Counted from the stretch's first letter, positions 1-43,900 are shown. The stretch: 64,000 bases of DNA from a virus (IMGVR_UViG_3300020432_000004); one strand, 5' to 3'. The notes: generated by a model not told the origin, from the sequence alone. Made by a program: numbers and translations.

Positions 1-2
1 CT

Positions 3-404
3 TGTGATGCTACATTTGGCACACTATCACAGGAGAAAGTAAATAAGTTATTTACAGATGGTAGAAGAGCATCAGGATTTCTTGAGATTCAATTAGAAGA
101 GTGGTTTCCTAATCTTACATTTGAAGATGGTAAGGGATATGACCACGTTGATACAGATGGAGTCAAGTATGATGCAAAATGTTTTACCAGAGGTGGAGCA
201 AAATTTTGCCCAAGTGGTATGTTAGGTATGGGTAGAAAGGTTGATGAGAAAGAGTTATGGGAACACGCAGAGAATATGATTTACATATTTACAGATGTAG
301 TAGAGTTTCCAAAAGTTCAAGTTAGATTTGTAAAAGGTTCTGACTTGACACAATATACAAAAGGTTCAATTCCATTCAAAGATAGAAATGTTTTATTTGG
401 GTGA
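3..404 (+). CDS. 5'-truncated ORF, putative PD-(D/E)XK nuclease (restriction-endonuclease-like)
   Basis: Frame of the 219..404 ORF is open back to the window start (CDATFGTLSQEK...GKGYDHVDTDGVKYDAKCFTRGG...); D..D-x-K spacing fits the PD-(D/E)XK core; overlaps the downstream MTase start. Confidence 0.55.
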   Translation, partial: CDATFGTLSQEKVNKLFTDGRRASGFLEIQLEEWFPNLTFEDGKGYDHVDTDGVKYDAKCFTRGGAKFCPSGMLGMGRKVDEKELWEHAENMIYIFTDVVEFPKVQVRFVKGSDLTQYTKGSIPFKDRNVLFG

Positions 405-1173
405 TTGCATAGAAGGTATGCAGAAACTAGATGATAAATCAGTTGATGCTATAGTTACTTCTCCACCATACAATTTGAATATCAAATACAGTAAATATAA
501 TGATACTAAACCACTAGACCAGTATCTATCGTGGTTAGGTGATGTATTTACAGAGTGTAAACGTGTACTTAAAGATGAAGGTCATCTATTTGTTAACATG
601 GGATACTCAAATGTCAATCCTACTGTAGGTATAGATGTATGCTGTAAACTAAGAGATAATTATATCTTACAGAATCATATTACATGGGTTAAAAGTATTC
701 ATACTGATAAGACACATGGACATTTTAAACCTATCAATAGTAAGAGATTCTTATGCCCTACATGGGAGCATCTATTTCATTTTACAAAAGATGGTAAGGT
801 AGAAATTGATAGACTTGCAGTTGGTGTTAAGTATGAATACTATGAAGCAAATATCAGAGGTAATAATACTAAGGACAATAAACCTAACCTTAGAGACAAA
901 GGTAATACATGGTTCATACCTTATGAGACTAGACAAAGTAAACTAGAGAAAGGTAACCACCCCGCTATTTTTCCAGTTAAGTTAGTAGAAGATTGTTTAC
1001 TATTAACTGGTATCAGTAATGGTATTGTACTTGACCCATTTATGGGAACTGGAACTACAGCAGTAGCATCAGTTAACTTAGGATGGGATTATATTGGTTA
1101 TGATATTGACCCAGAGTATGTTAAGTATTCTAAACAAAGAGTAGAAGGTGGGTTGAAAAGTTTATTAAGATGA
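388..1173 (+). CDS. DNA methyltransferase, N4-C/N6-A, beta class
   Basis: GDC start, catalytic TSPPY, HPAIFP, C-terminal SAM-binding LDPFMGTGTT. Confidence 0.93.
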   Translation: MFYLGDCIEGMQKLDDKSVDAIVTSPPYNLNIKYSKYNDTKPLDQYLSWLGDVFTECKRVLKDEGHLFVNMGYSNVNPTVGIDVCCKLRDNYILQNHITWVKSIHTDKTHGHFKPINSKRFLCPTWEHLFHFTKDGKVEIDRLAVGVKYEYYEANIRGNNTKDNKPNLRDKGNTWFIPYETRQSKLEKGNHPAIFPVKLVEDCLLLTGISNGIVLDPFMGTGTTAVASVNLGWDYIGYDIDPEYVKYSKQRVEGGLKSLLR

Positions 1174-7841: not shown

Positions 7842-7868
7842 AATAATATACAAATTCAATTAAAGATC

Positions 7869-8009
7869 ATGAGAACTTTAAAACTTGATGAAAAGCAGAA
7901 TGAAACACTTGAAGCAATGCTTAAGTATTTCTATGAAATCAAGATCAATCCAAAATATGAAAAAGGATTTATCGCATTATGGGATAACTTTCAAGATCAG
8001 GGAGAGTAA
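7869..8009 (+). CDS. hypothetical 46-aa early protein
   Basis: Read manually; first ORF after promoter copy 4. Confidence 0.6.
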   Translation: MRTLKLDEKQNETLEAMLKYFYEIKINPKYEKGFIALWDNFQDQGE

Positions 8010-22900: not shown

Positions 22901-25900
22901 CATCTATAATGGAACATTCTTAGTTACATCAAGAGATTCACCTACTGTATTCCAATATCAACTTCCTCAACCAGGTGGAGTTATACCTCAAGGTAATATT
23001 CTTGTTTCTATTGACCTTAATAAAGGTAAATCAGCAAGTGAACAGATTCTAACTGCTATTGGTTCGTACACCACTAACGTTCAGAATACATTCTTCAATG
23101 ATAATTACGTTTACGTTGCTTCTACAGGTATTCCTAACTATGAGATAGGTCCTTTTCCTGGTTCTGCGTTATTACCTGGCAACCAAAGAAAATTAAACAG
23201 ATTCCCAAGAACTGCTCAAACTATATCTACAAAGAACTTAATTAATCCTGGTCCTGTTGGAACTTGGGTTAATGGTGTTTCTATATGGTCATACAAGTCA
23301 GCTTTCTTCAAAACATTTGGTGCTGTAACTGATATTTCTATTACTAACGTTGGTCAAGACTATGACGCTGCATCTCCTCCTAATATTACTATTGCAGGTG
23401 GTGGAGGATCAGGTGCAACAGGTTCTGTTGTTGTTAACGGTTCTCTTAGTGAAGTAGAAGTTCTTACAGGTGGATCTGGTTATACATCCTCACCATTGGT
23501 CTCTATAGTCGGTGGAGGCGGTTCTGGTGCTGCTGCAACTGCTATTATCACTAAAGGTGTTGTTTCACGTATTCTGATCAATTCTGGAGGAACAGGATAT
23601 ACTTCACAACCTTCAATTACTATTGTTGGAGGTGGTGGAACTGGTGCAACTGCAACTGCAAACGTCAGAGGTCCTATTCAATCTATTGCTGTAACAAGTG
23701 GTGGTGCTTCATATACATCAAATCCTGATGTGACATTGAGTTCTGGATCAGGTGCTGTTGCTCAAGCAATTGTACAGAATGGTCGTATTATATCAATCGC
23801 TATTATTTCTGCAGGATCTGGTTATACAACTGCTCCTATAGTAAGTATTCAAGGTGATGGTTTTGGTGCTGTTGCAAGAGCAGGTATTGATATTGATGGA
23901 GAAAACGCAGGTAGAGTAACAAGTGTTGAGATTCTCAACAGAGGTATTGGATATATTCAAGGAACTACACTTATTAACTTGACTTCTGTTGGTCAAGGTG
24001 CATTATTTACAGCAAATGTATTCCAGTGGACATATAACTTACAAGCAACTAGTTCATTAGATACTGCAAAGGGTGGAGTATTTGAAGGATATAATAATCA
24101 GTATGGTGGTGAATATGCTCACTTATCAAACCCACAGAGACTAAGATATGTTCTTGGTGATAATTTACAAGAACCAACTGTAGGAAACGTAGTTGAACAG
24201 GCAGAACAGTTAAATCACTCTCCTATTGTTGGATGGGCATTTGATGGTAACCCAATATACGGTCCTTACGGTTATGCTGATCCTACAGATCAAGCATCTG
24301 CTATCAATAGATTAAACACTTCATATCGTCTTAAAACAGAACTCGTATATGATCCAGTTACTAATCCTTATCCTGCTAGAATTGCAGGTCCTCTACTTAA
24401 TGATGAGACAGCAGGTAACTTTGTAGAAGATTATGAGTATGTGTTTGGTTTAGGTGATCTTGATCAGTACAATGGTCGTTTCTGTAAGACACCTGAGTTT
24501 CCTGGTGGTAGATATTGTTACTTCGTTACTATTGACACTACTGAACAAGGTAATCCAGTATTCCCTTATGTTTTAGGTCCTAGTTTCAACTCAGTTGTTG
24601 ATACTTGGAACTTAAGTGATGGTGCAACACAACAGAATATTCCTACAGGTGTTGTTAGATATCGTGATCCATATGAGAACGTTGATATTGACGTTGAGAG
24701 GGCACCAAATGCCTCTACAAACGCTCTAACTACTGAAGACGGTGAATTACTCCTATTTGAGGTAGAAGACGAGAATAGGGACGCTGTGATCTCTCAGGAT
24801 GAATTAGATGATCCAGATCAAATCTTTGAAGAATCTCCTCTACAGTTATTTGATTACTTCCCTAAAGTTAAGTTTGACTCTAAGGTTGATATTGAAGTTG
24901 AGACAATTACTAAGTTTGAGGATGCTTCTGTAACTGGATTTACAGTAGAGAATCCTGGTGCATCTTATCAGGTTAATGACCGTTTAGTATTTGATAACAC
25001 AGATACTGATGGTACAGGTGTTTCTGCACGTGTTTCACATATTCAAGGTGAACCAGTATCTACATATGGTTTTGAGAGTATTGGTGGTCTCAACTATGGT
25101 GTTTTAAAAACTCAAAATCCACACAATTTGACAGTAGGAGATAATGTTGTAGTTGACTACACACCTATAATGAACAACACTAACAAAACTTTTGTTGTTA
25201 AACAGATTAAAGGTGTTGAAGAGATTGTTATTGATCAGCAGGGTTCTGGATATAATAGCGAATTACCTCCTACAATAATTCTTGATGGAGATGGAACTGG
25301 TGCTGCATTAGAAGCGGTTGTATCTTCTGTAGGATCTATTTCTTCAGTTAATGTAACTAACTCTGGTCAAAATTATACTACAAACCCAAGAGTTATACTA
25401 TCACACCCACAAATATACAAAAAAGCAGATTATTATATTTCTAAGATTGAAAGTAATGATTATGTTAAGGTTAATGATGTATTTGTAAATGATGCTAAGG
25501 AAATATACATTTGTGGTAAAACAAAAGATTCTTTTGGATATACTATAGCATTTGTATCAAAACTATCTGCTACTGGTGTTAAAGACTGGGAAAAGACAAT
25601 TAAGAGTACTGATGGTCAACAAGAAGTAGAATTTGAGAGAATATTAGTAGACGGTATGGATGTTTATTGTGTTGGTCATAATAGACCTAACTCAAACATT
25701 CTAGAAGCATATAACCCTGATGTTGTTCTTTGCAAGTATACACAGGCAGCTAACGGATTAAGTGCTAGTTTACAGTATCAGAAAGCGTATGCAGGTATAT
25801 CTGGTTCTACTCGTTCTGATAATGTTAGTGCTATTGCAAAATATTCAGATACTAGATTTGTTATTGGTGGACATACTAATACAAACTCTGGTAATCCATT

Positions 25901-28900
25901 TGATGCTTATATTGCTGTTGTAGATACACTTGGTAACTTTGCTGTTAAGAGAAAGATTACTTCTGTAAATGTTTCTGAAAAAATTACAGATTTACTTGTA
26001 AATGGAACTGACATATACTATACATTTGAAATTGCTACAAGTCCTAATGCATCATCAGTTGATACAGGTATTGGTAAAGCAAATGTAGGTACTAGTGCAA
26101 TTAGTCTTCTATGGAATAAGCAATTAACTAATACCTTGTATTCCTTTATGGATACAAGTCTTACAATAGATGAGTTTAGTGAACTTTATATTACTGCTAC
26201 AACTAGACTTAAGGCAGATAATACAACTAAAGATGGATTCTGGGTTGGTAAATTCAATGTTGATGGTGATACTCTTTGGAATTATCGTTATGGAGTTCTT
26301 GGTGGATACAGTATTAATGTTGCTAAGAGAAGTCATATTGATATATTTGGTGATCTTAACGTTGCAATTAACAAGTATCAGAATACAGACGGTGAATTAA
26401 CTGTTGACGTAGTTAAACTTGGATACAATGGTATTATTAAGAGTCATACTAATAATAAGTTTGATGTTAATAACATTGAAGGATTGACTGCACATACATT
26501 ATTCCCTGACAGTTCTGGTGATGTTCATGTATATGGTCAAACTTCTTGGAATAGAAATGAGTTATTACTACCATTTACAAGTGGTGAAACTACAGATACT
26601 ACAGGTCATTACACTCCAACATTCATAGGTGAGGGTAATTCATTAAAATTTGATAGTACTAATGGATATGCACAGATACTAGGAAAAGATACTGTTACTC
26701 CTACTACATGGGTAAATTCAGCAATACAAGTTAATGGTTCTGATTTAGGAACTAAACTAACTAACAACTGGACTATTGAGTTCATGTTGTATAAAGATGC
26801 TGTTGGTAATAACAATACACATAGTCAAACACAACAAACATTAATAGCAATCGGTGATGCTACCTTGAGTACAGGTGGTCTATGGTTGTATTATGATATT
26901 TCTAGTGGAGAATTACAATTAGTTGTTACTGCAAATGGAACAGCACTTAACTCTGCATCTGGTGCTCTTCAATCTGCAGTTACTACAATGTTTGCCGATA
27001 ATACTTGGCAATTCATTTCACTGACTAAATCTGCAGGTCAATACACTGCATACGTCAATGGTATACAAGTTCTTCAAGGAACTATTGATAATACTGCATT
27101 CCAGAATCAAAACCTATACATTGGTAATATTCCTGGTAGAAGTGGAACAACAGGTCAATTCCGTTCTAATGAGCAAGGTCAATATCATGTAGATAATCTT
27201 CGTATTAGAAACAGAGCAGTTACTCCTACAGTTCCTAATGATGTAACTAACTATCCTATTGCAGGTGAATTTAACGAAGGATTTAACTGGCAAGATACAT
27301 CATGGTTCTCTACTTACACAAACAAGTATGATTACATTGATTATGTCGGTTGGGGTCTTAAGATTGATAAAAATGCTGATGCAGCAAGATTAGGTACACA
27401 AACAGCACAAACTAATACACAGATTGGATTCACTAGAACTGCCATAGCAGTTGTGGAGGGAGGAGAACTAACTGTTAATAATACAGGATTTGCTTTAGCA
27501 GAGGCAGGATTCCAGAACTTAGACTTTGATGATGCTGATACATCAATGTCTCAGGATTCTAGCACATTGACATATCTTCAAGATGTTTGGAGTTCTAGAA
27601 CTGCTACTGTTCCTTCACCAGGTTCTCAGAAATTAAGAGTTACTGCTAATGTTAAGGACAGATACTACTTTAAGGTTACACCTACAGTCAAGATTGATAA
27701 TATTCAAGAACTTACTCTTAACCAAGAGTTTAGATTTACCACAGGAACAAAATTAAGACTTAACAATGATGCAGGAGTATTCCAAAATAGTGGATATATT
27801 ATTAGACAAGATGTTACTAATAGAAAGATATATCTTGCAGTTAATAATAATGCTTGGTCTGATAATCTCAATGCAGGTTATATTGTTACAGAACAGTTTA
27901 ATGAGCAAAGCACTTATGGAATTGTAGGACCTATACCTAATGATATTAATGAACTTACATTTACATTTGCACAATTAAACAATACTACACCAGGTGTATT
28001 TGATATTGATCTTAACAATTTCAATCATCCAGAGGGCGGTACAAACAATATGGATGAATTGACTAGATTCAAACCATATACTGATGATGATTACTCTATT
28101 AGAATTGATGAAGTTTCTGGTGGTTCACCTTATATTGTCGGATCTGTTATTAATATTGACTCTGGTGATATTAGTTACAATGCTGAATATACAACTGCAC
28201 AAATTCAAAATCTAACTGGTGTTCTTAAGATTACTCTAATAGCAACTCTTAGAAGAATTATACAAGCAACTGCAGTTGCTAATAGTGATGAAGTTTATAT
28301 TGTTACTGGAAGCAGTCACTACCTCACTGAGGGTGAGATGGTTAATATTGATGGTAACCCATCACAAACTTACAATAGTCTTGTATATGATGAATATGAT
28401 GGTGCTTTCCCAGTTCATACTGTTGTAAGTCCTGTTGAATTTACTTACAAATTACCTAATGCTGCTCTAACATCACCAGCTACAAACTCAGGTCAAGTTA
28501 ATATTTACGTTAAATCTCCTGTTCTTAAGATGTATTATGGACATCAATATCTGTTTGATGTCAGTCATTCTTCAATGGCAGGTGGTAACTTATCATTCTC
28601 TAAAGATAATCTCTACAAACTAGAATACTCATTTAACTCTATTGAAAGAGTAGGTACACCTGGTATTACTGGTCAAGGTGTTCCTAATCCCACTGTTAAG
28701 TTAAAAGTTGATACTGATATTGTTACTAACATTTCTTACTACTTTGACCCATCTAGAACAGGTGATGATTCTCCTGTTATCAAATCTAGTTACTTAGATG
28801 TTGTCAATTCTCCTTACGTAGGAAACTTTACTATTAGTTCTATATCTGGTGCAACTATTACTCGTGGTGCTGATACATTCAAATTCCCACTTGCTAATGA

Positions 28901-31900
28901 ACCAGAAGGAAATGCTGACGTTATCAATACATCTTATAGCACAAGTTCATTAAAGGCAGTTGGTTCTATCAGTGATATACGTATTGTTAATCCTGGTGGT
29001 TTCTATACTAGATTACCTGTTGTCACAACAATTCAATCATCTAGACAGATTGAGAGAGTTCAAATTGATGCACCAGGTACTGAATATGCTGTAGGTGTTT
29101 ATAATAGTGTTCCTATTGCAGGTGATGGAGAAGGTGGATTTGTTTCTATTACTGTTGCTGATGGAACTGATGATGAGGGTGTAACAATTCCTGGTCAAAT
29201 ACAAGAAGTTGTAGTTACATCACCAGGTAAAGGATATACTGTCGCAAGTATTGATGTTGAATCAATATCAGGTATTCTTGGAGCAGGTTTAACAGGTTCT
29301 GGTGTTGATCTGAATGTTGTTATACCTCCTGCAGGAACTGGTGCTTCTATCTTTACTAAAGGAACTAAAGTTGGTAAGATTAAGAAATTACAGAACAATA
29401 ACTTTGGATATGATTATCCTCATGACTATACTTTACGTCCTGAGATTTCATTCCCAATTAACGCACAGTTAACATCCACAAGTATACTTGATAGTATTAC
29501 AGTTACAGATCCAGGTTCTGGATATTCACAAGCACCTGCTGTTGTTATTACAGGTGGTGGTGGAGCAAATGCGACTGCTGAAGCATCTATTAAGAATGGT
29601 CGTTTAGATGATGTTATTGTTAAAGATCCTGGCTCAGGTTATTCATCTGCTCCTACTGTATCTTTAAGATCATCCTTTAACTATGTTGTTAACCTTGACT
29701 TAGGATTACTACAGTTTGCTTTCCCACATGGTATTCAAAATGGTGCTGAAGTTTCTCTAACTGTTACTGATACTGGAGATGGTGCTGACTTCCCATTAGC
29801 AGCAGGTGCTATTGGTCGTTTGAACTCTACTAACACATATTATGCTATTGCAGGTACTGCTAATTCTCTAGAAGAAAACCAGTTAAAGATTGCTATTACT
29901 GCTGCTAACGCTGCATTAGGTGACTCTATTCAGTTTGTTAACGCAGGAACTGGTCGTCAAACAATATTAACTGAATCATTTGGTGGTGCTGCTGAAGCAA
30001 ACGTTGTTACTTCTACATTCTTAGAAGGTGAACTTGTATATCAAGGTGATACATTAGAAACTGCAACTGCACAAGGTTATGTTTCTACTAACCAAGGTTG
30101 GCAGGTAGGACCTAGAGTTATTAAGATTGTTGATTATACTGGTGAATTTAATGCTAACGAAAGAATAACAGGTGTTATTTCTAAATCATCTGGTATCATT
30201 AGTGATCTTAAGATTGCTCGTGGTGTTCTTGAAATTGGTTCTATCACTAAAACAACAGGTCAATTTATTGATGATATTGGTAAACCATCTGAAATTATTC
30301 AGAAGATTCAAGATAGTTACTATTATCAAGACTTCTCATATGCTGTTAAGTCTGCTGTTTCTATCGGAGAGTGGAAAGAGATATTACTTAAGAACGTTCA
30401 CCCTGCATCATTTAAAGTATTTGGTGAGTTAAATCTATCTGATTATGGTCAAATTCCTAACAAGGAAACTGATTTCCAGATTACTAAGTCTGTTGAATTA
30501 GCAAGAGAAGCGATTGTACCTAATATTCAAAGTTTCTCTCTAGTTGAACCAGTATACTCACAGTTCAATAATTCAGAAGTATTATTCAGACAAAAAAGAT
30601 TAACGTCTTCAGAAAACATTTTAACATCTGTTGTACAAAGACTTGATGATATATCCAATTTATTTGATGGTGTTAAGACTCAGTTCCCATTATCAGTTAA
30701 TGGTGAAAACGTAGTTGCTAATGCTAATCAGTTAATGATCATCTTAAATGGTGTTGCTCAAACTCCTGAGACATCATTCTCAATTCTAGGTGATTCTATT
30801 GTATTCAGTCAACCACCACAACCACCTGCTAGTGTTAAGTATGTAAACGTTACTATTGAAGAAATTGATATATCTGAACTTACATTTAGTAATATTAGTG
30901 GTATTTTCCCACTTATAGGTAACTCAATGGGTGGACAGACATCTGGATCTAGATTTACTGTCACAAGTGTTGTTGGTAATAATATTAGAGGATTCTTTAC
31001 AGAAGGAACAGCATTTATTGTAGGTGAATTGGTAAGTAACTCTGCTACTGGATTTATTGCTAATTATGATTCTGTATCATCTATTTCTAATCTTGGATTA
31101 TTTGTATTTGGTGAGCAAGTAACTAACCTTACTGGACAAACTGCTAAAGTTGAAGCAATCAACTTGGCAGGTGGTGCAGAAGATCCACTTGGTCAACTTC
31201 GTTATGGTGTAGGACCTTCAACTGCTGCTATTGAAGTAGTTGCAGATAAAGCACAATCTACTGATCCTGATACTCCACCTCCTAGTGGAACATTTGTTGT
31301 TGGTGGTAATTATCAAGTTGGTTCTGAAATTGTAAATGTCACTCAAATTACTGAGAATAATGATTCTACTATATTAGAGGTAACTAGAGGACAATTAGGT
31401 ACTACTGCAGCAACACAGGCAGAAGATGGTCCTGTATATTCAACTGTAGTTAATGTTAATGACAAATTAACTTTAAGTAAGACTACTGGAACTTACCAGT
31501 CTACACCTGGTTTATTTGACCTTGAACTTAATGATGTTATTATTGGTGCTCAGTCTAATGTAGTTGCAAGATTGACTGCTACATCTACATATCAAGATCC
31601 TGCTACTCAAGAGTTTATTGGACAGGTTAATATTTCAGAGGGATCTTCATTCTTTGGTCTATTATTCAACAGAGTTACATCTATTACATATCCAAATATT
31701 GTTTTAGATGACATTTCAATATCAACAATTAGTGTCGTTGATTTTGAAACATTTACTACTGATATTGACTCTCAATTCCCTGCTAACGAATTTATTAGTC
31801 AAATTGTAATTCCTTATGATAACGCATCAGGTGCATTATCTGTAGGTGAGATGATTAGAAACTACAAACTAGATTATGGTAATAATGTAGGTACATTTAC

Positions 31901-34900
31901 TGCAGGTGAGTCTGGTAAGTCTAGAAAACTAACATTTAAAGAGAAGCAAGGAACTGGTTTATTCTCTGTAGGTCAAACAGTTAGAACTAGAGATACTAAG
32001 GCAGAAGTTATTGGATTTGACTTTGCAGGTAATACAATATATCTTGGTAAAATTGGTAGATCACTAAGAGGTGGTGCTGATTATCATCAGTTTAACTTCT
32101 CTAACGCTGCTCAATTAGATACTGCACAGAAGAAATTTGGAGATTCATCATTACTACTTGATGCTGCAACAAATGACTATATTCAAATTCCTGCATCATC
32201 TGAATTTACTCGTGGTACAGGTGATTATACTATTGAGTTCCAAGTTCGTTTAGATGCAACATCATTAGTAGATACTAAAACTCTACTTGATATGAGAACA
32301 AGTGCTACTGAAGTTGCACTTAGAATTTACTTACAGGCAGCACAAGTTAGAGTTAATGTTAATGGATCAGATATAGCAACATCTGGTGGAAATGCTTTAA
32401 ACAATGATGTTTGGTATCATCTTGTAATTCAGAGAACTGGAACTTCTCTTAAGATCTACTCTAATGGAGTTGAGATAGGAACTGGAACTGATAGTAGTAA
32501 CTATACACTAGACAGACCTATAAGAATTGGATCTGATTTGTCTGGTCTTAACAGTATGACTGGTCATATTGACGAGTTTAGATATTCTGTTGTTTCACGT
32601 TATGCTACAGCACCATTCAATGCTCCTAGTGGAATATTCCAAGGTGATGCTGATACAAAGGTACTATGTCACTTTGATGGTGCTGATGGTCAAACTTCTA
32701 CTGAAGATTGGTCTGGTGGTGAATCATTTACTAAGACTGAATACATTAATAATGATGCTATCTTAAAGACACATCAAGCATCTAACGCTGCACCTGCAGG
32801 ATTTACTACTAAGAGTCACAGATATCTTAACGCTGCAGATTTAATGTTAATGAACAAGGAATACCTTGCTCAAGAAACAGTTTATATTATGAAAGAAGTA
32901 TTCCCTGCTCATAGCGTTAAGGGAAGCGAAGTTGACTGTGAAGATGATGTAAGAGATGTTATTGATTCTCTTGTAGATGACTTACGTAATGGTAGTAACC
33001 ATCATATGTGGAAAGCATCTTCATACTATGTCAATAGAGAAGTAAATCCAATTCAAATTGTAAACGTAGAAGATGATGTCTCTATGACAGTCTTTGTTTA
33101 TAAGATTTTAGATAAACTTGCTAAGTATATTGTTAATAATGTTCCTTGGAGTACTCAAGGTGATCATGGTTTAATTCAGAAATATGATACTTCTATTACA
33201 TTTGATGGTTATACATCTCAGACATTAACTAAGTTTACTCCAACTGCAATCGACTATCATCCATCAATGGGTGACATGGAGATAACAGCTGCAAGTCATG
33301 GACTCGCGGCCCCTAGAACTATTACAGCAACAGACTCAGGATACACTGCTACCACTGGTGTTTTGACGATTCAATCTGTTGGGCACAACTTAGAAACTGG
33401 AGACAGAATTAAGTTTGAACCTAATTCTATTACCATGACTTGTACTTGTGATGGTAATGTAGTATCACAGAGTTATCCTCGAACAGACGATCCAGCAAAC
33501 CAAGGTTGGTTAGAAGTAGCGAAGATTGATAATGATAACTTTAGTGTAAATGTTGGAACATCTCCTACAGTAAATTATACTGCAACATCTGCAGATTATG
33601 ATTCTAATACTGGTTTCTTAACTATGGACATTGGTGACAATGATCTAAGACCAGGTAGTAAGTATACTGTTTCTAACGCTGCATATAATCCTACTACTGG
33701 TGTAATGACAGTCAGTGTTGGTAATGATCAATATGATGTTCATGATGCTGATTATAGTCCTACAAGTGGTGATTTAGAAATCTATACTGGAACACATAAC
33801 TTAAAGACTGGACAAAGAGTTAAGATTGCTAATGATGGTATTACATTTAGATGTTCTCAAGATGACTATGCAACAGATCATGCATATCCAAGAGCAACCG
33901 ATCCTGCACGTGATACAGCATTAGAAGTTACTCATGTAACTGATACATCATTTACTGTAAACGTTGGTAAGTCTCCTATCGTTACTTACGATGTTTCTAA
34001 TGCAACATTCAATCCCAACAATGGTGATATGGAGTTGACTATTGGAAGTCATACTTTGGCACAAGGTACTTCTATTAGAATAGCAACTCAAAGTATTGGA
34101 TTTACATGCACATATGGTGCAGGTGTTCATTACTATCCAAGACCTCTAATTGATGAGCATGTTCCTAGCGATGCAGCATATAATCCAACAACAGGTGTAG
34201 TAACATTTACTGTTGCTCAAGGACATGGAATGAAGAATGGTGATAAGGTTAAGATCCCTGATTATGCACTTTCATTTACATGTGATAAAGATAATAATGT
34301 AACTACTCACAGATATCCTAGACCTTATGATCCTGTTAGTGATAGATGGATTGAAATAAGTAATGTTCAAACAACATCATTTGATGTTCAAGTATTAGAT
34401 ACTGCTCCATCTACAAATACATCTACTCATACTTTTGTAAGTTTTGCAGGTGTAATTCAACAGAAACGTGATAAGTCATTTGAACAGTCTATTGAAATAA
34501 CTGGAACAACTCCAACAACTATTACTATTAATGTTGGTATTTCAAGTAATACAACAACTCATACATATTCAACTTCTAAAGCAGGTGCTGTAATTACTGG
34601 TGGTAATTATAAGCATAAGTTCAGATCTGCACTTGACAATGCTATTACAGTTGAGCATGGATTATATGTTGGTGATAGAGTCATGTTTGATAGAGACTCA
34701 CTAACATTTACATGTCTCGAAGATAGTAATGCTACTGAGCACACATATCCAAGAATTACAGATCCTTACTATAATAAGTGGTTACCTATTTCTAATGTAA
34801 CTCATACATCATTTGATGTTCAAGTACTAAGTTCTACACCTTCTACTAACCAAACTGCTCATACATTTGTTCGTTCTAAAGTTAATGGTTTAACAAGATC

Positions 34901-37900
34901 TGGTGAGACACTAAAACTTGCTAAAGATGCATTATCATTTACATGCTCACAAGATAATGATGCTACTGTTCATTCTTATCCTAGAGTTGATGATAGTGTT
35001 TATAATACTGCTATTCCAATTTGGAGTAATGGTAGCACTAGAATGACTGCTCAAAGTGCAACTTATAACACTGCAGAAGGATTATTAATTATTACTATAT
35101 TAAATCATGGTTTAACAGTTGGAACTGAACTAAGATTAGAGAATAACTCATTAGTCTTTACATGTTCTAAAGATGGTAATAAGACTGAGCATTCTTATCC
35201 TAGACCTAAAGATCCATTTGCTGCTAGATGGTTAAGAATTAAGGCAGTTACAGATCATACATTTACATTATTTGTTGGTGCTGCGAGTCCTACAGGTCAA
35301 TATGCTCATACATTTGTACGAGCTATTAAGGATGGTATTGTAAAACGTGATAACACTGTTACCATAAACGTTGGTGCAACTCCAACTAAGGCGTATACTC
35401 CATCAGCTGCAACTTATAATGCTGGTACTGGTGCTTTAGAATTAAATGTTGGAAATCATAGTTATCCTGCTCCAACACAACATACACCAACAGATGTAGC
35501 ATATAATCCTGTTAGTGGTGTAATGACTTTGACTATTGCAGGTCATAACTTCTCTAATGGTGAGAAAATTAAGATTGATGATAATGGTATTACATTAAGT
35601 TGTCCTTATGGTGGTGCGACTGGATCTGCTGCACAGAAAACTTATCCACGTCCAACTGATCCAGTTAGCAACAAATGGATTCCAATATTCAACGTAACTA
35701 CAGATACTTTTGATGTTCAAGTATTAGATAAGGTTCCATCAACTAACGTTGATACACATACCTTTGTAAGTGCAGTTAATAACTGTGTTAAGAAAGCAAA
35801 TTACACTGTTAAACTTGCTCCTGATTCATTAGTAATGACTTGTGATATGGATAGTAATGCTACTAAGCATCTATATCCTAGATCTAATGTTGCTCAACAT
35901 ACTGCAAGCACAGGAACTACTTACAATCCAGTATCAGGTGTACTTAAAGTTTCTATTCCAACTGAATCATTTACTGCAAGTGCTGCAAACTATAATGTAA
36001 CAACAGGTGATTGTGTATTAACAATATCTCAGAATGCAGGATCTTATAATGTTACTGGTGCAACTTATGCACCTACAACTGGTGTTCTAGTTCTTACAAT
36101 CGGAACTCATAGTTTAACAACTAGCGATAGAATTAAGATTACTCCAGAATCACTTAAGTTTACTTGTGATTACAACAACGATAATAATGAAACAATTCAT
36201 CCTTATCCTAGAGCATCAGGTGCTTATAATTCAACAAATTCAAAAGCAGACTATGCATATGATACATGGTTAGATATTACTGCTGTAAGTCCTAACACTA
36301 TCACTGTTAATGTTAACGGTGGACAGGGTGCTATTACTGATATTAGTAACCATACATTTGTTGGTGCACTTGATGGTGCAGTTCAAGTTGGTCACGGTAT
36401 CGTACCTGGCAACAAAGTTAAACTTGCTCCTAACTCACTAACATTTACTTGCACATTAGATGGTAATACTGCACAAAAATCTTATCCTAGATCAACAGGT
36501 GCTAATACAACAAGTGGTGCTGACTATGCTTATGATAAGTGGCTCAGAGTTATGGCAGTTGGTGAAAATACAATTACTATTAACTTGAATGGTGGTCAAG
36601 GTGCTATCTCAGATACATCAGCACATACATTCGTTTCTGCAACTACAGATGGTATTACTCTTGGACATGGTATGGTTGCAGGTACACCAATCAAGATTAA
36701 AGATAATTCAATTAAGTTTAGATGTGGATTTGATAATTATGAAACTCTACATCCATATCCAAGACCTAGTGATCCTGCAAGTGATAAGTGGTTGTTTATC
36801 AGTAATGTAGATGATAGTAGTTTTGAGGTTAACGTTCTACAAGGAACAACTCCTACAAATACTACAACTCATACCTATGCAGGTTCTGATGATTTAGGTA
36901 TCATTCAAGGAGATCCACTTGTTGCCCAAGCAATTCCTATTGATTCAGTTACAAGTAATACTATTACTATCAATGCTTTAGATGGATATACACCTTCATT
37001 TACACCAAATCATACATTAGACAGTATATCTACAAATCAATTTACACCAACTAATGCTGTATACAACGGTGAAACTGGTGTAATGACAATTACAGTAGCA
37101 ACTACTCTATTCCAACCATCAATGATTGCTTATAATGCAATTACTGGTGAAATGCAAATGACTATAGGTTCTCATAGTCTATCAATAGGACAAGAGATAT
37201 TAATTGCACCTAATTCACTAACATTTACTTGTGATTATAATGGAGATGGAAACACTACAAACAAAACTTATCCTAGAGCATCAGGTGCTGCAACTCCTAG
37301 CGGTGCTGACTTTGCATACAACAATCATTTACAAATTACCGATACAACAGCAACTTCGATCACTGTTAACGTAAATGGTGGTGGAGGATCAATTACTGAT
37401 ACAACAAGTCATCAGTTTGTTTCTGCTACAGCAGGTGCAATCAGTGTAGGTCATGGTATACAAAATGGTGAAAAAATTAAGATTGCTGATGGTGGAATAA
37501 CATTCACTTGCACTCATGATAGCAATGCTACAAATCATCCTTATCCTCGTGCAACTGACCCTGCTAGTGGTAGATGGTTAGACGTTATGAACGTCACCAA
37601 TACAACATTCGATGTTCAAGTACTTGACGAAATTCCTTCAACAAATACTACAGCACATACATTTGTTTCTGCTACAACTAATGCTATTACAAGAGCAATA
37701 GTTTCAACTGGTGGTAATTACAAACATAAGTTTGTATCTGGTCTTACAAATGGTGTTAGAACAGGTGGAGATTACACTCATACATTTGTTTCTGCAACTA
37801 CAAACGGTATTCATGTTGCAGGTGACTGTGTATACATTGATGATAACTCACTAAGATTTACTTGTTCTCAAGATAATCATCTAACACAACATGATTATCC

Positions 37901-40900
37901 AAGATCAACTGATCCTGCAAGTCATCAGGTGATGGAAGTTAAGACTGTAGATAATGATAGATTTGTTATTAACGTTGGTAAGTCACCACAAGACAAACGT
38001 TATGATCACTTATTTGTTAGTGGAGATGCTAATTCTATTACTAAGTCTAAGTATTTCGTTACAAATTGTTCTGATGTTTATACAACTACAAACAACTTAA
38101 TTTCTATACTAACAGATACAATAGAACAGGCTGCTTTAGCATCTCCTGTAGATCATCTTGCAACTGTTACTGATCTAAATCCAGTACAAGAATTTATTGG
38201 TGGTAGAGTTCATTCATATCTTGAAGTTCCATTTAAGATCACTTATGAAGATGATGCTAGTGAATTAATATACACAGATAGAATTGATGTATTCAGTCGT
38301 TACAGATTCCGTGATGCTGCTGAATTAATTCGTCAGAATCGTGGTGCTATTGTAGATAAAGCATCATTTGATATGTTGCAGCGTTATCCAGATCTTAATC
38401 AGGATATGCCTAGAAACCAGAATGGTGCATCCACAGATGGAACTGAACGTTGTAAGACTGACTTAGGATTAGTTGTTGATGGTCTTGCTAATGATGTAGA
38501 AAATGGTGGTAATAAAAACGTTGTTACTGCTGCAGGATTCTATATCGGTGCTAATAATGAAATACAACATATTAGATTACAATTACCACAATCTATCTAC
38601 GTTCACGAACGTTTAATATACTACTTAAAGCAAGCAATAGATGGAACTCTAACAACTGATAATACAGAAAATCTCATTGTTGGAGACTGGGGTATTACAA
38701 ATAATGACTATACAACATCGTACGATGTATATGATGCTGCATATACTCCTTCAACTGGTGATCTAACATTAACTCTTGCTTCAAATACTGGATCTTATAG
38801 TGTTAGTGGTGCTGTTTATAATCCAACATCAGGTGATTTAACACTTACAATCGGAACTCATACATTAACAACTACTGATAAAGTTGGAATTGCTGAGGAG
38901 TCATTAGTCTTTACTTGTGATTACAATGGAAATGGTAATCAAACTCAAAAGAGATATCCTAGATCATTTGGTGCTAACACTACAAATGGTGCTGACTATG
39001 CATATAATCAGTTCCTTGATATCACAGCAGTAAATCAATCTGGTGGAACAATCACTGTTAACGTCAATGGTGGTCAAGGTGCAATTACAGATACAACAAC
39101 TCATAACTTTGTTGTTACTCCATCTGCCACAAATGCAGTTACTGTTGGTCATGGATTTGGTGTAGGTGATAGTTTACAGATCAATAACGAAGCATTAACA
39201 TTTACATGTTCAATGGATGGAAATGTTTCTAATAAAACATATCCTCGTGCAACTGATCCTGCATATGGTAAGGCACTTACAATTAATTCTAGAACTGCAA
39301 CAACTGTAACTGTAAATGTAGGACCTAGTCCGTTAGTTAGGTACACACCAACAATGGCAACATACACTGCCTCAACTGGTGTAATGGTTCTTACTATTGG
39401 TAACCATAACTTACAAGTTGGTCAACCAATTAAGATTAGTGGAGGTGCATTGAAGTTTACATGCTCAATGGATCAAAATGAATCTATTAAATCATATCCA
39501 AGAACTACAGATCCATTCTACGACAAACCTATTGATATTACTGCAACTACAGCAGATACTATTCAGATAAACGTTGGTCAAAGTCCTATTGTAATGCACA
39601 ATGTTTCTAATGCTACTTACGATCCTAATACAGGTGTAATGGTATTAACAATCGGTATAAACCACGGATTAACTGCTAATACTAGCATTAAACTTGCTAC
39701 TGAATCATTAGTCTTTACTTGCACATTAGATGGTAATACAGTTGAGAAATCTTATCCTCGTGCTACAACTGCTAACACAGGAACAGGTGCTGACTATGCA
39801 TATGATACTGCAATCAATATTGATTCTGTAGATCAAAATGCAGGAACAATTACTATCAATGTAAATGGTGGACAAGGTGCTATTTCTGATACATCAGCAC
39901 ATACATTTGTTTCTGCTAATTCTGGTGCTGTAAGATCTGGTGGAGATTATGTTCATACATTCCATTCAGCAGATACTGAATCTGTAATAGCAGGTGGAGA
40001 TTATACTCATGTATGGGCAGGTGGTACTGCTACAGATGCAGTCTTTACTGTTGGTGATTGTGCAGATGTTAAGACTAACATTGAATCATTAATAGAAACT
40101 GTTAATGATATTATTGCACCTACTGGAAAGGATTATGATGTTGCAGGTAATAGACTTTACTTTAACAGAGAACTTATTGCAGAAGATGTAACATCTAATA
40201 TGTTAACTGGATTTACATATCAAGCAGGTCCTACAACATACTTTGCATTCCAATTCGGAGGATCTAATTTAGAAGCAACCGAGTTCCAAGCTGATGTAGA
40301 GTTCCTTGTTAAGTCATTAATATCCGATTTACAGACTGGTGGTAATAGTAGTTCTATCAGAGCACTTGAAGAAACATATCTCAACGCAGATGGAACACTT
40401 CATAGAATTGAAGATATGGTTATGGCAACTGTCTATGGTATGGAAGTACTTAAGGAAGTTGGTCGTGAAGTAATTAGAAATAATGTATATAACTCATTTG
40501 AGAGTCAACCATTTGGTGCATATTCAACACCATCAGGTAAAGCTGCTTATAGAGATGGTGAAGAAACAGTTGATATTGATCAGGTTGTTGGAGACTGGAA
40601 TAATCTTCTTGATCATGTGATTGAGTTCTTCTCACCTGGCAAGAAGATTGCTAGAAGTGGTATGAAGCAAATTCTTTATAATGCAAACTACTATAAGAAT
40701 GAATTAAACAATCTTGTTAATACTCAGTTTGGAACTGGATCATGGGTATACAATGATTTTGTTGATCAGTTACTTGGAAATATGATCCAAGACTCTATTA
40801 CAACTGACGTAGATCATGTTATAGATGCTTACAGACTTACTGTTGACAATGTGAGTGGTGAGTTTAAGGTTGATGAGGTTGTTACAGCATCAGGTGGTGG

Positions 40901-43900
40901 ATATGCTAAGATTCTTGAATGGGATAGTAAAGATAGACATCTTTATATTGGATCATTCTTAGAAGGTACAATCTCTGGTGGTGAAACAATTACAGGTCAA
41001 ACAGCAGGTGCAGCAACCATTATTACTGGTGGTGTTAGCAAGAAATTTGATTGGTATACACATCCTGCAAACGTTGAGATTCTTAGAAATGCAAGGTTAA
41101 TTAGTTCTAGTGTTCAAGATCAATTAATAGGTCAAAACGTTGGATATAATTTCCCAGAAGATTTGACTGGAGGCGGTAATGTTCTTACTAATGTAACAAT
41201 ATCAACAGACGTAACTGCTGCTCCTGATAATGCAGTTACTGCTGATAAGATTGTAGCAACATCAACTGTAGGTACTCATATATTACATAACAATTACAGT
41301 TTGAATGCGTTTGAAACATTTGACTCTGGTAACGTCACCTTTGATACTAGTGGAGAAACATTTGATACTGGACAAGTAGGTACAGCAGAAAGTCAGCAGT
41401 TTACATACTCCATATTCTTGAAGCAAGGTGAATATACTAAGGCACGTTTCCAAGTATCTCTAGATGAAGATACTCCTCAGAGACAGCAAGCATTCTATGA
41501 TATTGATTTAACAAATGGAACTACAGGTAGTATATTCCAACCTCAAGGTGGTTTACAGATAGATGCATCTGGTGTTATACCTTATGGTGGAGGATGGTAT
41601 AGAGCATTTATTACAGTTACATGTTCATTCGGTTTCCAACAACTCCGTCAAATGGTTCAAATTAAAAATGCTACTGGTCAAACTAGTTTTGGTGGTAATG
41701 GAACTGATGGTTTATTTGCATGGGGACAGAAATTAACTAAGGGATTAATTGATCCTTATGCTGCTACATCTGGTGAAGTATTCTATGCTGATACAGAATA
41801 CAACATTAAGACATATACTATCAATAAATTAGAAGGATGGATATATGATGCATTGAAGGATCAGTTAATTAATCCTTCTCCTGAGTCAGGATTCGTACCT
41901 TACTTTAGTGATGCTGATGCAGCAAATTATCATCCAGATTCAGTTCATAGATTAGTAAGATATAGTTTAGATATTATCCGTAATCAATTATTGAATAGCA
42001 CTTACTACACTGATATTATTGTTCAAAATGGTATAGTAAGTCCAACTAAAGATTATGGAACATTTGATATTCCTGTTGGATTAGCAGGTGGTCTAAACAA
42101 TGCTGATTACTTATATGGTCTAGCATCTGGTTCATACGCTGAACTAGAGAAAGTAACCATGAATGAAGGTGAAGTTGTTCAGATTTATCAGAGATTCCGT
42201 ATTGATGGTAATATTGTTGATGGTCCTTTCTTCATGAATGAAGTAGTTGAGAAACAAGGTGATAACACAGTTACTGGTGTTGTATATGGATTCTTTGAAG
42301 ATGATAACTTTAAGTATCTTGATGTTGCTGTAACTGGTGGAACATTCTCAGTATTAGATTATGTTGTTGGTGCAACTAACACAACAACTGCTCAGATCAA
42401 TGCTATTGAAGATAGAATACAGATTACTGATCTTCTAGGAGAATTTACAGATAATATTCCATTCAAAGGATATGACACAGGTGAAACTGCAATCCCAACT
42501 GGATTCTTAAAAGCACAAGCTGCTGTTACAGATAATAGTGGTGGTAAATTAACTGTTGACACTGAAACACTCATAGGTACATTTGAAACCACTGCTACAA
42601 TATTCCCAGAACAATCTAAATTATTCCTTGATGTTGCCAGATATGATGGATTAGATACCTTAATAGGTTACAGAATATCATCTGCAGGACATACAAGAAT
42701 TGGTATTTCAATTCAAAATAACAAGAACGTATTTACAGTTGGTAATAGACTTAATAAGATTACTAATGGTGTTATTGATCCTAATAACTATGGTATTATT
42801 ACAGAACTTGATCTTGACAATAACATCATATACTACATTCTTGCAGCAGGTAATATTACTAATGGTGATCAAGTTGGTGACTTTGGACCTGCACCAGATC
42901 CACTCAATCCATTAGGACACGCAGTAATTAACACTAAGTTAGATGTTGCAGGTGCTGCTACTGCATTGATTCAAGATATTAAAGAGGTTGGTGTTAATAA
43001 GAGATTCTATCTAACAGATGTTCGTGGAACATTTAGTGGTAGAGATGGAATCTTCAGTAAAGATGGTTACAAGGCAGCGATCATAACTAAGACTGATCTT
43101 AAGGGACGTGTAGAACGTGCATTTAGAGGATTTGATGGAGTTCAAACTAACTTTAAGTTAACTATTGAGAATGGAACTAAGTACTTCCCTGATCCTGCAG
43201 GACATATGTTGATCTTTATCAATGGTGTTCTACAACCACCAGGTTCAGCAAATGCTTATACAGCATTCTCAGATAACATCCAGTTTACTGAAGCACCTGA
43301 TCTTGGAGCATCATTTACAGGATTCTATGTTGGTAAACTAAGACAGTTAGATGATATATCATTTGAGTTTGATTCATTACGTCAGTCATTCAACTTGAAA
43401 CGTGACGATGTGTTCTACTCATTGACACTGACTGATGGTGTTCAATCTTCTACAATCTTACCAGAAAATAATATCATTGTTTCACTCAATGGTGTTATAC
43501 AGGAACCAGGCGTTGGTTTTGAATTGGTTGGTTCTAGAATTATATTCTCTGAAATTCCTCGTGTTGGATCAACCTTCGTTGCCTTCTCCTACGTTGGTTC
43601 TGAAGCGGACGTAGACGCTGCTGAGGTTGTACCTCCAATCGAAGTTGGTGACTTTATTGATATACAAGGTGAGACTGAAGATAGACAGGTTGCTGTTATC
43701 GAATCTTCTAACTCCTTGATTACATTCGACTATCTTGGATCTGTATTTGGACAGAATGCAAAAGCATCTGCCACACTAACATCTGGAACTATTGATAGAG
43801 TTCAAGTTACAGCAGGTGGATCTGGTTACACAACTAGACCAAATGTAAGGGTTGACTCTATATCTGGATTTGATGGAAACATTCGTGCACTCGTCGGGGT

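What the first reader, a model, noticed from the sequence alone, without database searches (positions are those of the whole stretch)
32817..40640. Phycobiliprotein-like domains with both bilin-attachment cysteines inside a giant baseplate protein
Seen: three (perhaps four) related helical segments in the 8034-aa ORF. Copy 1 starts ~32817 (RYLNAADLMLMNKEYLAQETV..FP..VDCEDDVRDVIDSLVDDLRNGSN). Copy 2 starts ~38301 (RFRDAAELIRQNRGAIVDKASFDMLQRYPDL..DGTERCKTDLGLVVDGLANDVENGGN). Copy 3 spans ~40130-40640 (NRELIAEDV..FQADVEFLV..DLQTGGN..ALEETY..ATVYGMEVLKEV). Recalled from memory, phycobiliprotein subunits read roughly RLRIAQILTENRERIVKQA..LFQKRPD (ApcA), GKDKCARDIGYYLR..GG (CpcA, Cys84/Asp87), GLKETY..ATVQAIQAMKEV (ApcB) and, at the end of CpcB, GDCSAL (beta-Cys153/155). 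Copies 1 and 2 keep C-x2-D at the Cys84-equivalent site (codons 32937 and 38451). After long insertions each closes with a helix starting NCSDV (38067) or GDCADV (40059), matching the beta-155 site. Copy 3 has lost the Cys. Inference: the virion may carry globin-fold, possibly bilin-chromophorylated domains. That would offer a substrate for the bilin enzymes (Ho1, PebS, PcyA) and CpeT/T-type lyases that T4-like cyanophages are known to encode; T-type lyases act on beta-155. Possible roles are light-sensitive adsorption or baseplate triggering, photoprotection, or a purely structural reuse of the fold.
Basis: partly seen in the sequence, partly recalled or inferred. Interest (0 to 1): 0.92.

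Follow-up and report, generated by a model that had tools for sequence, protein, structure and literature searches.

The report
Phycobiliprotein-fold domains in cyanophage baseplate protein
The 8,034-residue baseplate protein of this marine cyanobacterial virus contains three (plus one decayed) true relatives of the host's light-harvesting pigment proteins, two of them still carrying the pigment-attachment cysteine, so one can now test whether the virus particle carries pigment and why some such viruses need light to attach; pigment binding has not been shown.

Summary
Observation confirmed.

The segments are homologous ~165-190-aa units. Unit 1 and unit 2 are each split by a beta-repeat insert (~1,600 and ~450 aa) placed just before the closing helix. 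Relatives without the insert prove this.

Fold and ancestry are supported:
- AlphaFold models match phycoerythrin beta at Z 16.6 (unsplit relative) and Z 15.6 (the window's split unit 2).
- All top matches are phycobiliproteins.
- Profile-profile tests against real phycobiliproteins give P 5e-8 to 6e-6 for each unit, with Cys on Cys82.

The units lack the X-Y helices. In this window they also lack the Arg of C-x-R-D.

Pigment attachment is untested, but four comparisons support it:
- In 149 diverse relatives, Cys, Arg and Asp are kept in 97, 92 and 99% of ~1,390 units.
- Cys and Asp are lost together.
- All three near-complete uncultured phage genomes carrying a haem oxygenase/bilin reductase pair carry such units.
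- Among 15 isolates, cpeT occurs only with the units. P-SSM2, which adsorbs in the dark, has neither.

This scan noted the same domains earlier in at least 49 other genomes. I found no paper describing them.

The parts
19935..44039 (+). Giant baseplate protein, 8034 aa, at the gp7 (baseplate wedge initiator) position
   Evidence: ORF. PF23786 Baseplate_wedge 39.4 bits, YHYH and Laminin_G_3 domains, phrog_701/2885. Flanked by a gp6-like gene (phrog_219) and further baseplate wedge genes.
32820..33209 (+). Unit 1, N part (helices A to G of the phycobiliprotein core), aa 4296-4425
   Evidence: hhalign against real phycobiliproteins: Prob 91.9, P 6.9e-7, unit 3-107 = PBP 38-144.
32937..32939 (+). 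Unit 1 Cys at the Cys82/84-equivalent site (C-E-D-D, Asp at +3)
   Evidence: Cys present in 117 of 121 homologues, always together with Asp at +3.
33210..38024 (+). Insert 1 in the G-H loop of unit 1: about 1,600 aa of beta repeats (F-T-C ... Y-P-R motif)
   Evidence: Split hit of unit 1. 13 of the 17 motif copies in the protein lie here.
38025..38144 (+). Closing helix (H) of unit 1, aa 6031-6070, with second Cys at codon 38067 (N-C-S-D-V)
   Evidence: Matches unit positions 130-169.
38298..38705 (+). Unit 2, N part, aa 6122-6257
   Evidence: PF00502 at 16.5 bits, E 0.0085, below the cut-off. hhalign against phycobiliproteins: Prob 94.9, P 4.6e-8. AlphaFold model and searches.
38451..38453 (+). 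Unit 2 Cys at the Cys82/84-equivalent site (C-K-T-D)
   Evidence: Cys and Asp(+3) present in 121 of 121 homologues.
38706..40049 (+). Insert 2 in the G-H loop of unit 2: about 450 aa of the same beta repeats
   Evidence: Alignment A4 shows size classes of 0, ~130 and ~450 aa at this one point. The model is all-beta over its residues 141-584.
40050..40127 (+). Closing helix (H) of unit 2, aa 6706-6731, with second Cys at codon 40059 (G-D-C-A-D-V)
   Evidence: In the model it packs back onto the N part: phycoerythrin beta aligns over model 1..607 with 148 residues, Z 15.6.
40131..40697 (+). Unit 3, contiguous, aa 6733-6921; Cys replaced by Phe (F-Q-A-D), second site G-D-W
   Evidence: hhalign against phycobiliproteins: Prob 85.3, P 5.9e-6, 133 columns reaching the C terminus. 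Unit 3 keeps the Cys in 73 of 121 homologues, mostly as C-x-R-D.
40641..40820 (+). Probable unit 4, N part (decayed, no Cys), aa 6903-6962
   Evidence: hhalign against the unit profile: Prob 82.6, P 1e-5, unit positions 5-69.
41787..42059 (+). Possible C part of unit 4 after a third insert, aa 7285-7375
   Evidence: hhalign against the unit profile: Prob 58, P 1e-4, unit positions 100-157. Weak.

Best explanation
Shown: the segments are three tandem copies, plus a decayed fourth, of the globin-like core (helices A to H) of the phycobiliprotein / bilin-binding-globin family, built into the gp7-type baseplate protein of a T4-like cyanomyovirus. Long arrays of beta repeats loop out of the G-H loop of units 1 and 2 and return to a closing helix. 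Inferred: units 1 and 2 keep the Cys-x-x-Asp pair because they bind a host-made bilin (phycoerythrobilin or phycocyanobilin) in the pocket equivalent to Cys82/84. Attachment would happen during assembly in the infected cell, either on its own, as in the self-attaching BBAG globins and ApcE, or with help from the phage CpeT-like protein, which may serve the beta-155-like second Cys. The baseplate periphery would then carry a few dozen bilins per virion at most. The most likely use is light-responsive tuning of adsorption or baseplate triggering. Unit 3 and unit 4 of this phage would be pigment-free structural remnants.
For: Fold: an AlphaFold2 model made without templates of an unsplit unit 2 (pLDDT 84, pTM 0.83). 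Foldseek against the PDB: every row shown (ranks 1 to 50) is a phycobiliprotein, best TM 0.78, about 160 of 163 columns. VIA-align: phycoerythrin beta Z 16.6, rmsd 2.5, 149 residues aligned; the top 8 are all phycobiliproteins or ApcE; other globins reach Z 11.7 at most. The window's own split unit 2 gives Z 15.6 over model 1..607. Sequence: PF00502 is the only Pfam hit and appears in 9 of 10 unsplit units. 12 of the top 20 PDB sequence hits are phycobiliproteins or fluorescent proteins that I take, from memory, to be engineered from them. hhalign against 27 real phycobiliproteins gives P 4e-6 for the unit profile and 7e-7, 5e-8 and 6e-6 for units 1 to 3; a reversed control gives P about 0.3. 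Three relatives pass the Pfam cut-off (28.5, 42.2 and 44.8 bits). Constraint on the site: Cys is kept in 117/121 (unit 1) and 121/121 (unit 2). All 311 units with Cys have Asp at +3, against 8 of 52 without Cys. In 149 representatives clustered at 50% identity, Cys is kept in 96.8%, Arg(+2) in 92.3% and Asp(+3) in 98.8% of about 1,390 units, and these are among the most conserved columns of the domain. Context: cpeT is present in the nearest record and in 4 complete relatives. Among 15 isolate cyanomyoviruses the counts are units+/cpeT+ 10, units+/cpeT- 2, units-/cpeT+ 0, units-/cpeT- 3; my one-sided Fisher test, worked by hand, gives p = 0.022 without correction for relatedness. All 3 uncultured phage records at 85-100% completeness that carry a haem oxygenase/bilin reductase pair hold such units, 11 of 13 of them C-x-R-D. 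Among 50,697 isolate phage records the family is almost confined to cyanophages. P-HM2, P-HM1 and S-PM2 need light to adsorb (PMC6628666) and have 5, 5 and 9 units. P-SSM2 adsorbs in the dark and has none. BBAG globins with C-x-R-D attach bilins without lyases (PMC10151467).
Against: No chromophore has been measured. In this window the Arg of C-x-R-D is missing from all units (C-E-D-D, C-K-T-D, F-Q-A-D). Other invariant phycobiliprotein residues (Arg91, Tyr95) are not kept. The X-Y helices, and with them the usual alpha-beta assembly, are absent. No haem oxygenase or bilin reductase was found in the nearest record or in 4 complete relatives. The second Cys is kept in only 43% of units in the wider family. 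The co-occurrence and adsorption correlations rest on few, related genomes; the three unit-free phages may, from memory, form one clade. Several many-unit proteins sit on 27-72% complete contigs where no psbA, cpeT or bilin gene was found. I know of no report of coloured cyanophage preparations (own knowledge).
Confidence: 0.5

Rival explanations
1. True phycobiliprotein homologues, but pigment-free in the virion. The helical cores would serve only as rigid hubs that anchor and space the looping beta-repeat arrays of the baseplate periphery. The Cys-Asp pair would be inherited and kept for folding or packing.
For: The Arg of C-x-R-D, Arg91 and Tyr95 are not kept in this window. The X-Y helices are absent. 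Unit 3 loses Cys in 48 of 121 homologues without losing the domain. Inserts of 0 to 1,600 aa are tolerated at one loop, as expected of a scaffold. No bilin synthesis genes were found in the closest genomes.
Against: A purely structural role does not explain why Cys, Arg and Asp are among the most conserved columns over about 1,390 divergent units. It does not explain why Cys and Asp disappear together. It does not explain the co-occurrence with cpeT and with haem oxygenase/bilin reductase pairs.
Confidence: 0.33
2. The conserved Cys serves another chemistry: a disulfide or thioether that stabilises an extracellular protein, metal binding, or binding of a different tetrapyrrole such as haem or biliverdin, as in other globin-fold sensors.
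For: Two conserved Cys per unit in a protein exposed to oxic sea water. Globin-coupled sensors and the biliverdin-binding photocobilin globins are the next-best structural matches (Z 10 to 11.7). BBAG-2 binds biliverdin without C-x-R-D (PMC10151467).
Against: By homology the two Cys lie at the beta-82 and beta-155 positions, which in solved phycobiliproteins are far apart (own knowledge; model coordinates could not be read here). The second Cys is absent from 57% of units in the wider family while the first is kept in 97%, so the two do not behave as a pair. No His is conserved at a haem-ligand position among the top conserved columns.
Confidence: 0.12
3. The likeness to phycobiliproteins is convergent or an artefact of the predictor, and the units are an unrelated helical bundle.
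For: The Pfam score of the window's own unit is below the cut-off (16.5 against 22.2 bits). Identity to phycobiliproteins is only 12-20%. Helical models often reach middling Z scores.
Against: Independent lines agree in register: Pfam, PDB sequence profile, hhalign for each of three units with a flat reversed control, and two structure searches in which phycobiliproteins stand 3 to 5 Z units above all other globins. The catalytic-site motif falls on the same columns. Three relatives pass the Pfam cut-off.
Confidence: 0.04

Closest known systems
Phycobiliprotein beta subunits (CpeB, CpcB, cryptophyte beta chains; Pfam PF00502)
   Same: Same helix A-to-H core (Z 16.6, rmsd 2.5 over 149 residues). 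Cys on Cys82/84 and Asp on Asp85/87. A second Cys in a G-D-C motif just before helix H. Extra length in the G-H loop, which is the beta-specific insertion point.
   Different: No X-Y helices, so no canonical alpha-beta protomer. The Arg of C-x-R-D is missing in this window. The units are covalently chained in an 8,034-aa virion protein. The G-H loop holds 450 to 1,600 aa of beta repeats. The Pfam score is below the cut-off. No pigment has been shown.
BBAGs, bilin biosynthesis-associated globins (Rockwell et al. 2023, PMC10151467)
   Same: They are phycobiliprotein paralogues outside the light-harvesting antenna. Many carry C-x-R-D and attach bilins without lyases. They are genomically tied to haem oxygenase and bilin reductase, as are the units of three near-complete uncultured phage genomes.
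   Different: BBAGs are single-domain bacterial proteins of unknown role. Here the units are arrays inside phage tail and baseplate proteins. No BBAG sequence was at hand, so I could not test whether the phage units branch with BBAGs or with phycobiliproteins.
ApcE (core-membrane linker) bilin-binding domain
   Same: A phycobiliprotein-type domain embedded in a large multidomain protein and interrupted by a loop insertion. It attaches its bilin autocatalytically (own knowledge). Structural match Z 14.6 / 13.8.
   Different: The ApcE loop lies between helices B and E and is short. The protein sits in the phycobilisome, not in a virion.
T4 gp7, baseplate wedge initiator
   Same: Same gene position after gp6. 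PF23786 match at aa 678-729. Homologues are annotated as gp7 in P-SSM2 and P-HM2.
   Different: T4 gp7 has about 1,000 aa and no globin-fold domains (own knowledge). P-SSM2 gp7 (5,195 aa) shares the N part and the beta repeats but has no such unit.

Membership tests
Phycobiliprotein family, Pfam PF00502 | Score at or above the curated Pfam cut-off (22.2 bits) | tested here: not met
   The window's unit 2 scores 16.5 bits, E 0.0085; units 1 and 3 give no hit. Relatives P0229, P0131 and P0254 pass with 28.5, 42.2 and 44.8 bits. Profile-profile P is 5e-8 to 6e-6 for each unit. So membership holds at superfamily level only.
Phycobiliprotein family, Pfam PF00502 | Globin-like core of helices A, B, E, F', G, H in phycobiliprotein geometry | tested here: met
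   VIA-align Z 16.6 (unsplit unit) and 15.6 (window unit 2 with its insert) to phycoerythrin beta 5aqd_M. The top 8 matches are all phycobiliproteins or ApcE. In Foldseek every row shown (ranks 1 to 50) is a phycobiliprotein.
Phycobiliprotein family, Pfam PF00502 | N-terminal X-Y helix pair that builds the alpha-beta protomer | tested here: not met
   Models align from phycobiliprotein residue 32-34 onward. hhalign starts at residue 38-42. The stretch before unit 2 is a beta-like linker.
Phycobiliprotein family, Pfam PF00502 | Cys82/84 with Asp85/87 at +3 on helix E | tested here: met
   Unit 1 C-E-D-D and unit 2 C-K-T-D align on PBP C-x-R-D. Unit 3 has F-Q-A-D: Cys lost, Asp kept.
Phycobiliprotein family, Pfam PF00502 | Arg84/86 at +2 (propionate partner) completing C-x-R-D | tested here: not met
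   The residue is Asp, Thr and Ala in units 1 to 3 of the window. Arg is present in 58 of 73 Cys-bearing unit 3 copies of homologues and in 92.3% of units of the wider family.
Phycobiliprotein family, Pfam PF00502 | Beta-type second attachment site (G-D-C before helix H, Cys153/155) | tested here: met
   N-C-S-D-V (unit 1) and G-D-C-A-D-V (unit 2). Real beta subunits read G-D-C-[NST]-[AS]-L. Unit 3's G-D-W aligns on that G-D-C. Cys is kept in 33 of 35 unit 2 copies.
Phycobiliprotein family, Pfam PF00502 | Covalently bound bilin chromophore | not testable with these tools
   This needs expression with bilin synthesis genes, or analysis of purified virions.
BBAG (bilin biosynthesis-associated globins) | Encoded together with haem oxygenase and a ferredoxin-dependent bilin reductase | tested here: inconclusive
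   No haem oxygenase or bilin reductase in the nearest record (62% complete) or in 4 complete relatives. Among relatives elsewhere, the 3 near-complete uncultured phage records with an overlapping HO-FDBR pair all hold units. These genes lie far from the unit-bearing gene, not beside it.
BBAG (bilin biosynthesis-associated globins) | Closer in sequence to BBAG-1/3 than to light-harvesting phycobiliproteins | not tested
   No BBAG sequence could be obtained.
T4-type gp7 baseplate wedge initiator | Baseplate_wedge domain, and a gene position between gp6 and the later wedge genes | tested here: met
   PF23786 scores 39.4 bits against a cut-off of 27, at aa 678-729. Neighbours are phrog_219 (gp6-like), phrog_677, phrog_708 and phrog_438.

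The most novel reading that the evidence does not exclude
The virion is itself a photoreceptor. Bilins bound to the phycobiliprotein-type units of baseplate and tail-fibre proteins change conformation or energy state in light and gate adsorption or baseplate triggering. This would explain three things: the light-dependent adsorption of cyanomyoviruses such as S-PM2, P-HM1 and P-HM2; the unexplained phage cpeT; and the haem oxygenase/bilin reductase cassettes of phages, including phages that lack psbA.
Probability: 0.2. Interest if true: 0.97.

Novelty: new variant of a known kind. Interest (0 to 1): 0.86.

Why it matters
Three open questions become directly testable with one protein.

1. Why some cyanomyoviruses adsorb only in the light, independently of host photosynthesis. 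[quoted passage not shown]
2. What the widespread phage cpeT is for. Its role was called unresolved in PMC3037559.
3. What acceptor the bilins made by phage haem oxygenase, PebS, PcyA and PcyX serve. PMC11480375 names a phytochrome or a BBAG as mere possibilities.

A pigment-bearing virus particle would be a new kind of virion component. Even without pigment, this is a clear case of a cellular light-harvesting or bilin-binding fold recruited as a building block of phage tails. It is repeated up to 31 times in one protein and used as a socket for very large loop inserts.

Tried and rejected
- The ESM Atlas look-up of the unit gave only weak phage-connector clusters (score 0.81, below the useful range), so I did not use it.
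- Megablast of the region against isolate phages found only a 97-base match in P-SSM7.
- The window's own assembly is not held. The nearest record, G001 (76% of the window's sampled 31-letter words shared, 62% complete), was used instead.
Genomic context of the wider family therefore came from IMG/VR contigs through the search for related loci.
- I looked for further units upstream of aa 4296 with the unit profile at E up to 10 and found none. The count of seven units reported by earlier notes for other genomes therefore does not hold for this protein, which has 3 plus 1 decayed.
- A disulfide between the two Cys of a unit could not be checked directly, because model coordinates are not readable. 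I argue against it only from homologous positions and from the unequal conservation of the two Cys.
- I considered capture of a host cpeB/cpcB gene by this phage lineage. I did not adopt it as shown, because the family also occurs on large psbA-free viral contigs, and at 12-20% identity no tree was attempted.
- Complex prediction was not used, because no bilin ligand is offered.
- Bilin reductase and haem oxygenase were sought and not found in G001 and 4 complete relatives.

Full report
**1. What is in the sequence**

The window holds one ORF of 8,034 codons, 19935..44039 on the + strand. It lies in the baseplate module of a T4-like cyanomyovirus. A gp6-like wedge gene precedes it and further wedge genes follow. 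The protein carries a Baseplate_wedge match above the Pfam cut-off, plus YHYH and Laminin_G_3 domains. Homologues are annotated gp7 or 'baseplate wedge initiator' in P-SSM2, P-HM2 and S-RIM50.

G+C is about 35%. The only close DNA match among isolates is a short stretch of Prochlorococcus phage P-SSM7.

**2. The segments are homologous units, and two of them are split**

I found 173 giant homologues. In many of them the three helical segments lie directly one after another as units of 162-196 aa. In the S-RIM4 protein the three units hit each other end to end at 15-46 bits.

Mapped back to the window:
- Unit 1 is aa 4296-4425 plus aa 6031-6070.
- Unit 2 is aa 6122-6257 plus aa 6706-6731.
- Unit 3 is contiguous, aa 6733-6921.

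An alignment of 35 unit 2 copies shows three states at a single point, directly before the second Cys: no insert, about 130 aa, or about 450 aa. The inserts are beta repeats with an F-T-C ... Y-P-R motif, 17 copies in all.

A fourth, decayed unit is likely. Residues 6903-6962 match unit positions 5-69 (Prob 82.6, P 1e-5). Residues 7285-7375 match positions 100-157 more weakly. No further unit was found upstream.

**3. Fold**

An AlphaFold2 model of an unsplit unit 2 was made without templates from a 75-row alignment of units 1 to 3. It reached pLDDT 84 and pTM 0.83.
- Foldseek against the PDB: every row shown (ranks 1 to 50) is a phycobiliprotein, with about 160 of 163 columns aligned and TM up to 0.78.
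- A Foldseek-independent scan of 48,161 chains put phycoerythrin beta first (Z 16.6, rmsd 2.5 A, 149 residues).
- Next came allophycocyanins and the ApcE bilin domain (Z 13.2-14.7).
- Other globin-fold sensors start at Z 11.7.

The model aligns from phycobiliprotein residue 32-34 onward. The unit is therefore the globin-like core without the X-Y helices.

The window's own unit 2, folded with its 450-aa insert (pLDDT 72), gives the same ranking. Phycoerythrin beta aligns over model residues 1..607 with 148 residues (Z 15.6). The helix after the insert therefore packs back and completes the fold.

**4. Sequence-level homology**

- PF00502 is the only Pfam family hit by unit 2 (16.5 bits, below the 22.2 cut-off). 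It recurs in 9 of 10 unsplit units.
- A unit profile searched against PDB sequences lists phycobiliproteins, or fluorescent proteins that I take from memory to be engineered from them, in 12 of its 20 best rows, in one register.
- I fetched 27 real phycobiliproteins from five cyanobacterial genomes. hhalign then gave:

| Query profile | Prob | P |
|---|---|---|
| Mixed unit profile | 86.9 | 4.2e-6 |
| Window-seeded unit 1 | 91.9 | 6.9e-7 |
| Window-seeded unit 2 | 94.9 | 4.6e-8 |
| Window-seeded unit 3 | 85.3 | 5.9e-6 |
| Reversed control | - | about 0.3 |

- In all alignments the unit Cys falls on Cys82 and the Asp on Asp85.
- The unit 3 alignment runs to the C terminus and puts its G-D-W on the G-D-C of beta subunits.
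- Three distant relatives pass the Pfam cut-off.

**5. Constraint on the attachment site**

In the 121 sampled homologues, counting the window's own protein:
- The first Cys is kept in 117 (unit 1), 121 (unit 2) and 73 (unit 3).
- All 311 Cys-bearing units have Asp at +3. Of the 52 units without Cys, only 8 keep the Asp, the window's unit 3 among them.

A profile search of 1.84 billion representative proteins found 1,056 proteins, many with 15-31 units each. Over 149 of them (one representative per 50%-identity cluster) about 1,390 units cover the site:
- Cys 96.8%, Arg(+2) 92.3%, Asp(+3) 98.8%.
- The consensus is K-C-x-R-D, and these are among the most conserved columns of the domain.
- The second Cys is kept in only 43%.

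The window's units read C-E-D-D, C-K-T-D and F-Q-A-D. They are atypical in lacking the Arg.

**6. Context and distribution**

Among 50,697 isolate phage records, a many-unit query finds 353 records, nearly all of them Synechococcus or Prochlorococcus phages. The family also sits on large uncultured viral contigs without psbA or cpeT.

The one nearly complete contig of that kind (330 kb) carries overlapping haem oxygenase and bilin reductase genes. I then started from that reductase. All three carrier records at 85-100% completeness hold the units, 11 of 13 of them reading C-x-R-D.

cpeT is present in the nearest record and in four complete relatives. Bilin reductase and haem oxygenase are not.

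Over 15 isolate cyanomyoviruses:

| | cpeT present | cpeT not found |
|---|---|---|
| Units present | 10 | 2 |
| Units absent | 0 | 3 |

A one-sided Fisher test, which I worked by hand, gives p = 0.022, not corrected for relatedness.

**7. Link to adsorption**

Published work states that P-HM1, P-HM2 and S-PM2 adsorb only in the light, independently of host photosynthesis, and that the mechanism is unknown. P-SSM2 adsorbs in the dark (PMC6628666).
- P-HM1 and P-HM2 each have 5 units at E up to 1e-5, and S-PM2 has 9.
- P-HM2's five read two C-x-R-D and three C-x-D-D. S-PM2's nine read eight C-x-R-D and one C-x-D-D.
- P-SSM2 has none anywhere in its genome. Its 5,195-aa gp7 shares the N part and the beta repeats only.

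This is four phages, two of them close kin. It is a lead, not a test.

**8. Comparison with what is known**

The nearest families are the beta-type phycobiliproteins and the BBAG globins. BBAGs are phycobiliprotein paralogues with C-x-R-D that attach bilins without lyases and sit beside haem oxygenase and reductase genes (PMC10151467). ApcE is a precedent for such a domain inside a large protein with a loop insert.

A 2024 paper on phage tetrapyrrole genes leaves the purpose of the phage hemO-pcyX/pcyA cassette open and names BBAGs as one possible acceptor (PMC11480375). Four full-text searches found no paper describing these domains in phage structural proteins. Earlier notes of this scan report the same domains in at least 49 other genomes.

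**9. Verdict**

Pigment attachment is unproven.

The family-wide conservation of the site and the gene co-occurrences make attachment the single most likely reading for the family. The missing Arg in this window's units and the lack of any measurement keep it near even odds here.

Noticed in passing
window 33210-38024 and 38706-40049: Seventeen beta repeats of about 85-95 aa with an F-T-C ... Y-P-R ... D-P motif fill the two inserts. In the model they are all-beta and weakly resemble a beta domain of phage phi92 endosialidase (Z 7.9). P-SSM2 gp7 has the same repeats without any phycobiliprotein-type unit.
   Followed up: partly
L335:7197-8397 (G016, 330-kb uncultured viral contig): Overlapping haem oxygenase and bilin reductase genes sit next to ClpS, HSP20 and IMPDH genes. 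Directly downstream lie curli export genes (CsgF, CsgG) and proteins with curlin repeats. This is unusual cargo for a phage and hints at a Gram-negative, possibly non-cyanobacterial host.
   Followed up: partly
L336 (G006:C1:44000-52000): In a psbA-lineage phage whose tail protein has about 14 units, cpeT (47194-47694) lies directly beside haem oxygenase (47787-48392). A bilin reductase lies at 7312-7965 of the same contig.
   Followed up: partly
window 23991-24539 (aa 1353-1535) and about 32169-32582: The same giant protein carries a YHYH domain (PF14240, E 5e-32). It also carries a Laminin_G_3 / concanavalin-like domain just upstream of unit 1.
   Followed up: no
window 51039-58268: A 2,409-aa ORF matches only a PHROG family of unknown function (phrog_358). 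It is followed by another structural ORF of more than 1,724 aa that runs off the window.
   Followed up: no
phage collection: One Pelagibacter phage record and ten 'Marine virus' single-cell records matched the many-unit query. I did not check whether the match falls on the phycobiliprotein-type units or on another part of the query.
   Followed up: no
S-ShM2 (GU071096) and P-SSM7 (GU071103): Both have the units but no cpeT match at E up to 0.001, although candidates were scored. If I guess the column order of Table 3 in PMC3037559 correctly, it lists a CpeT-like gene for P-SSM7. A divergent cpeT may have been missed.
   Followed up: no
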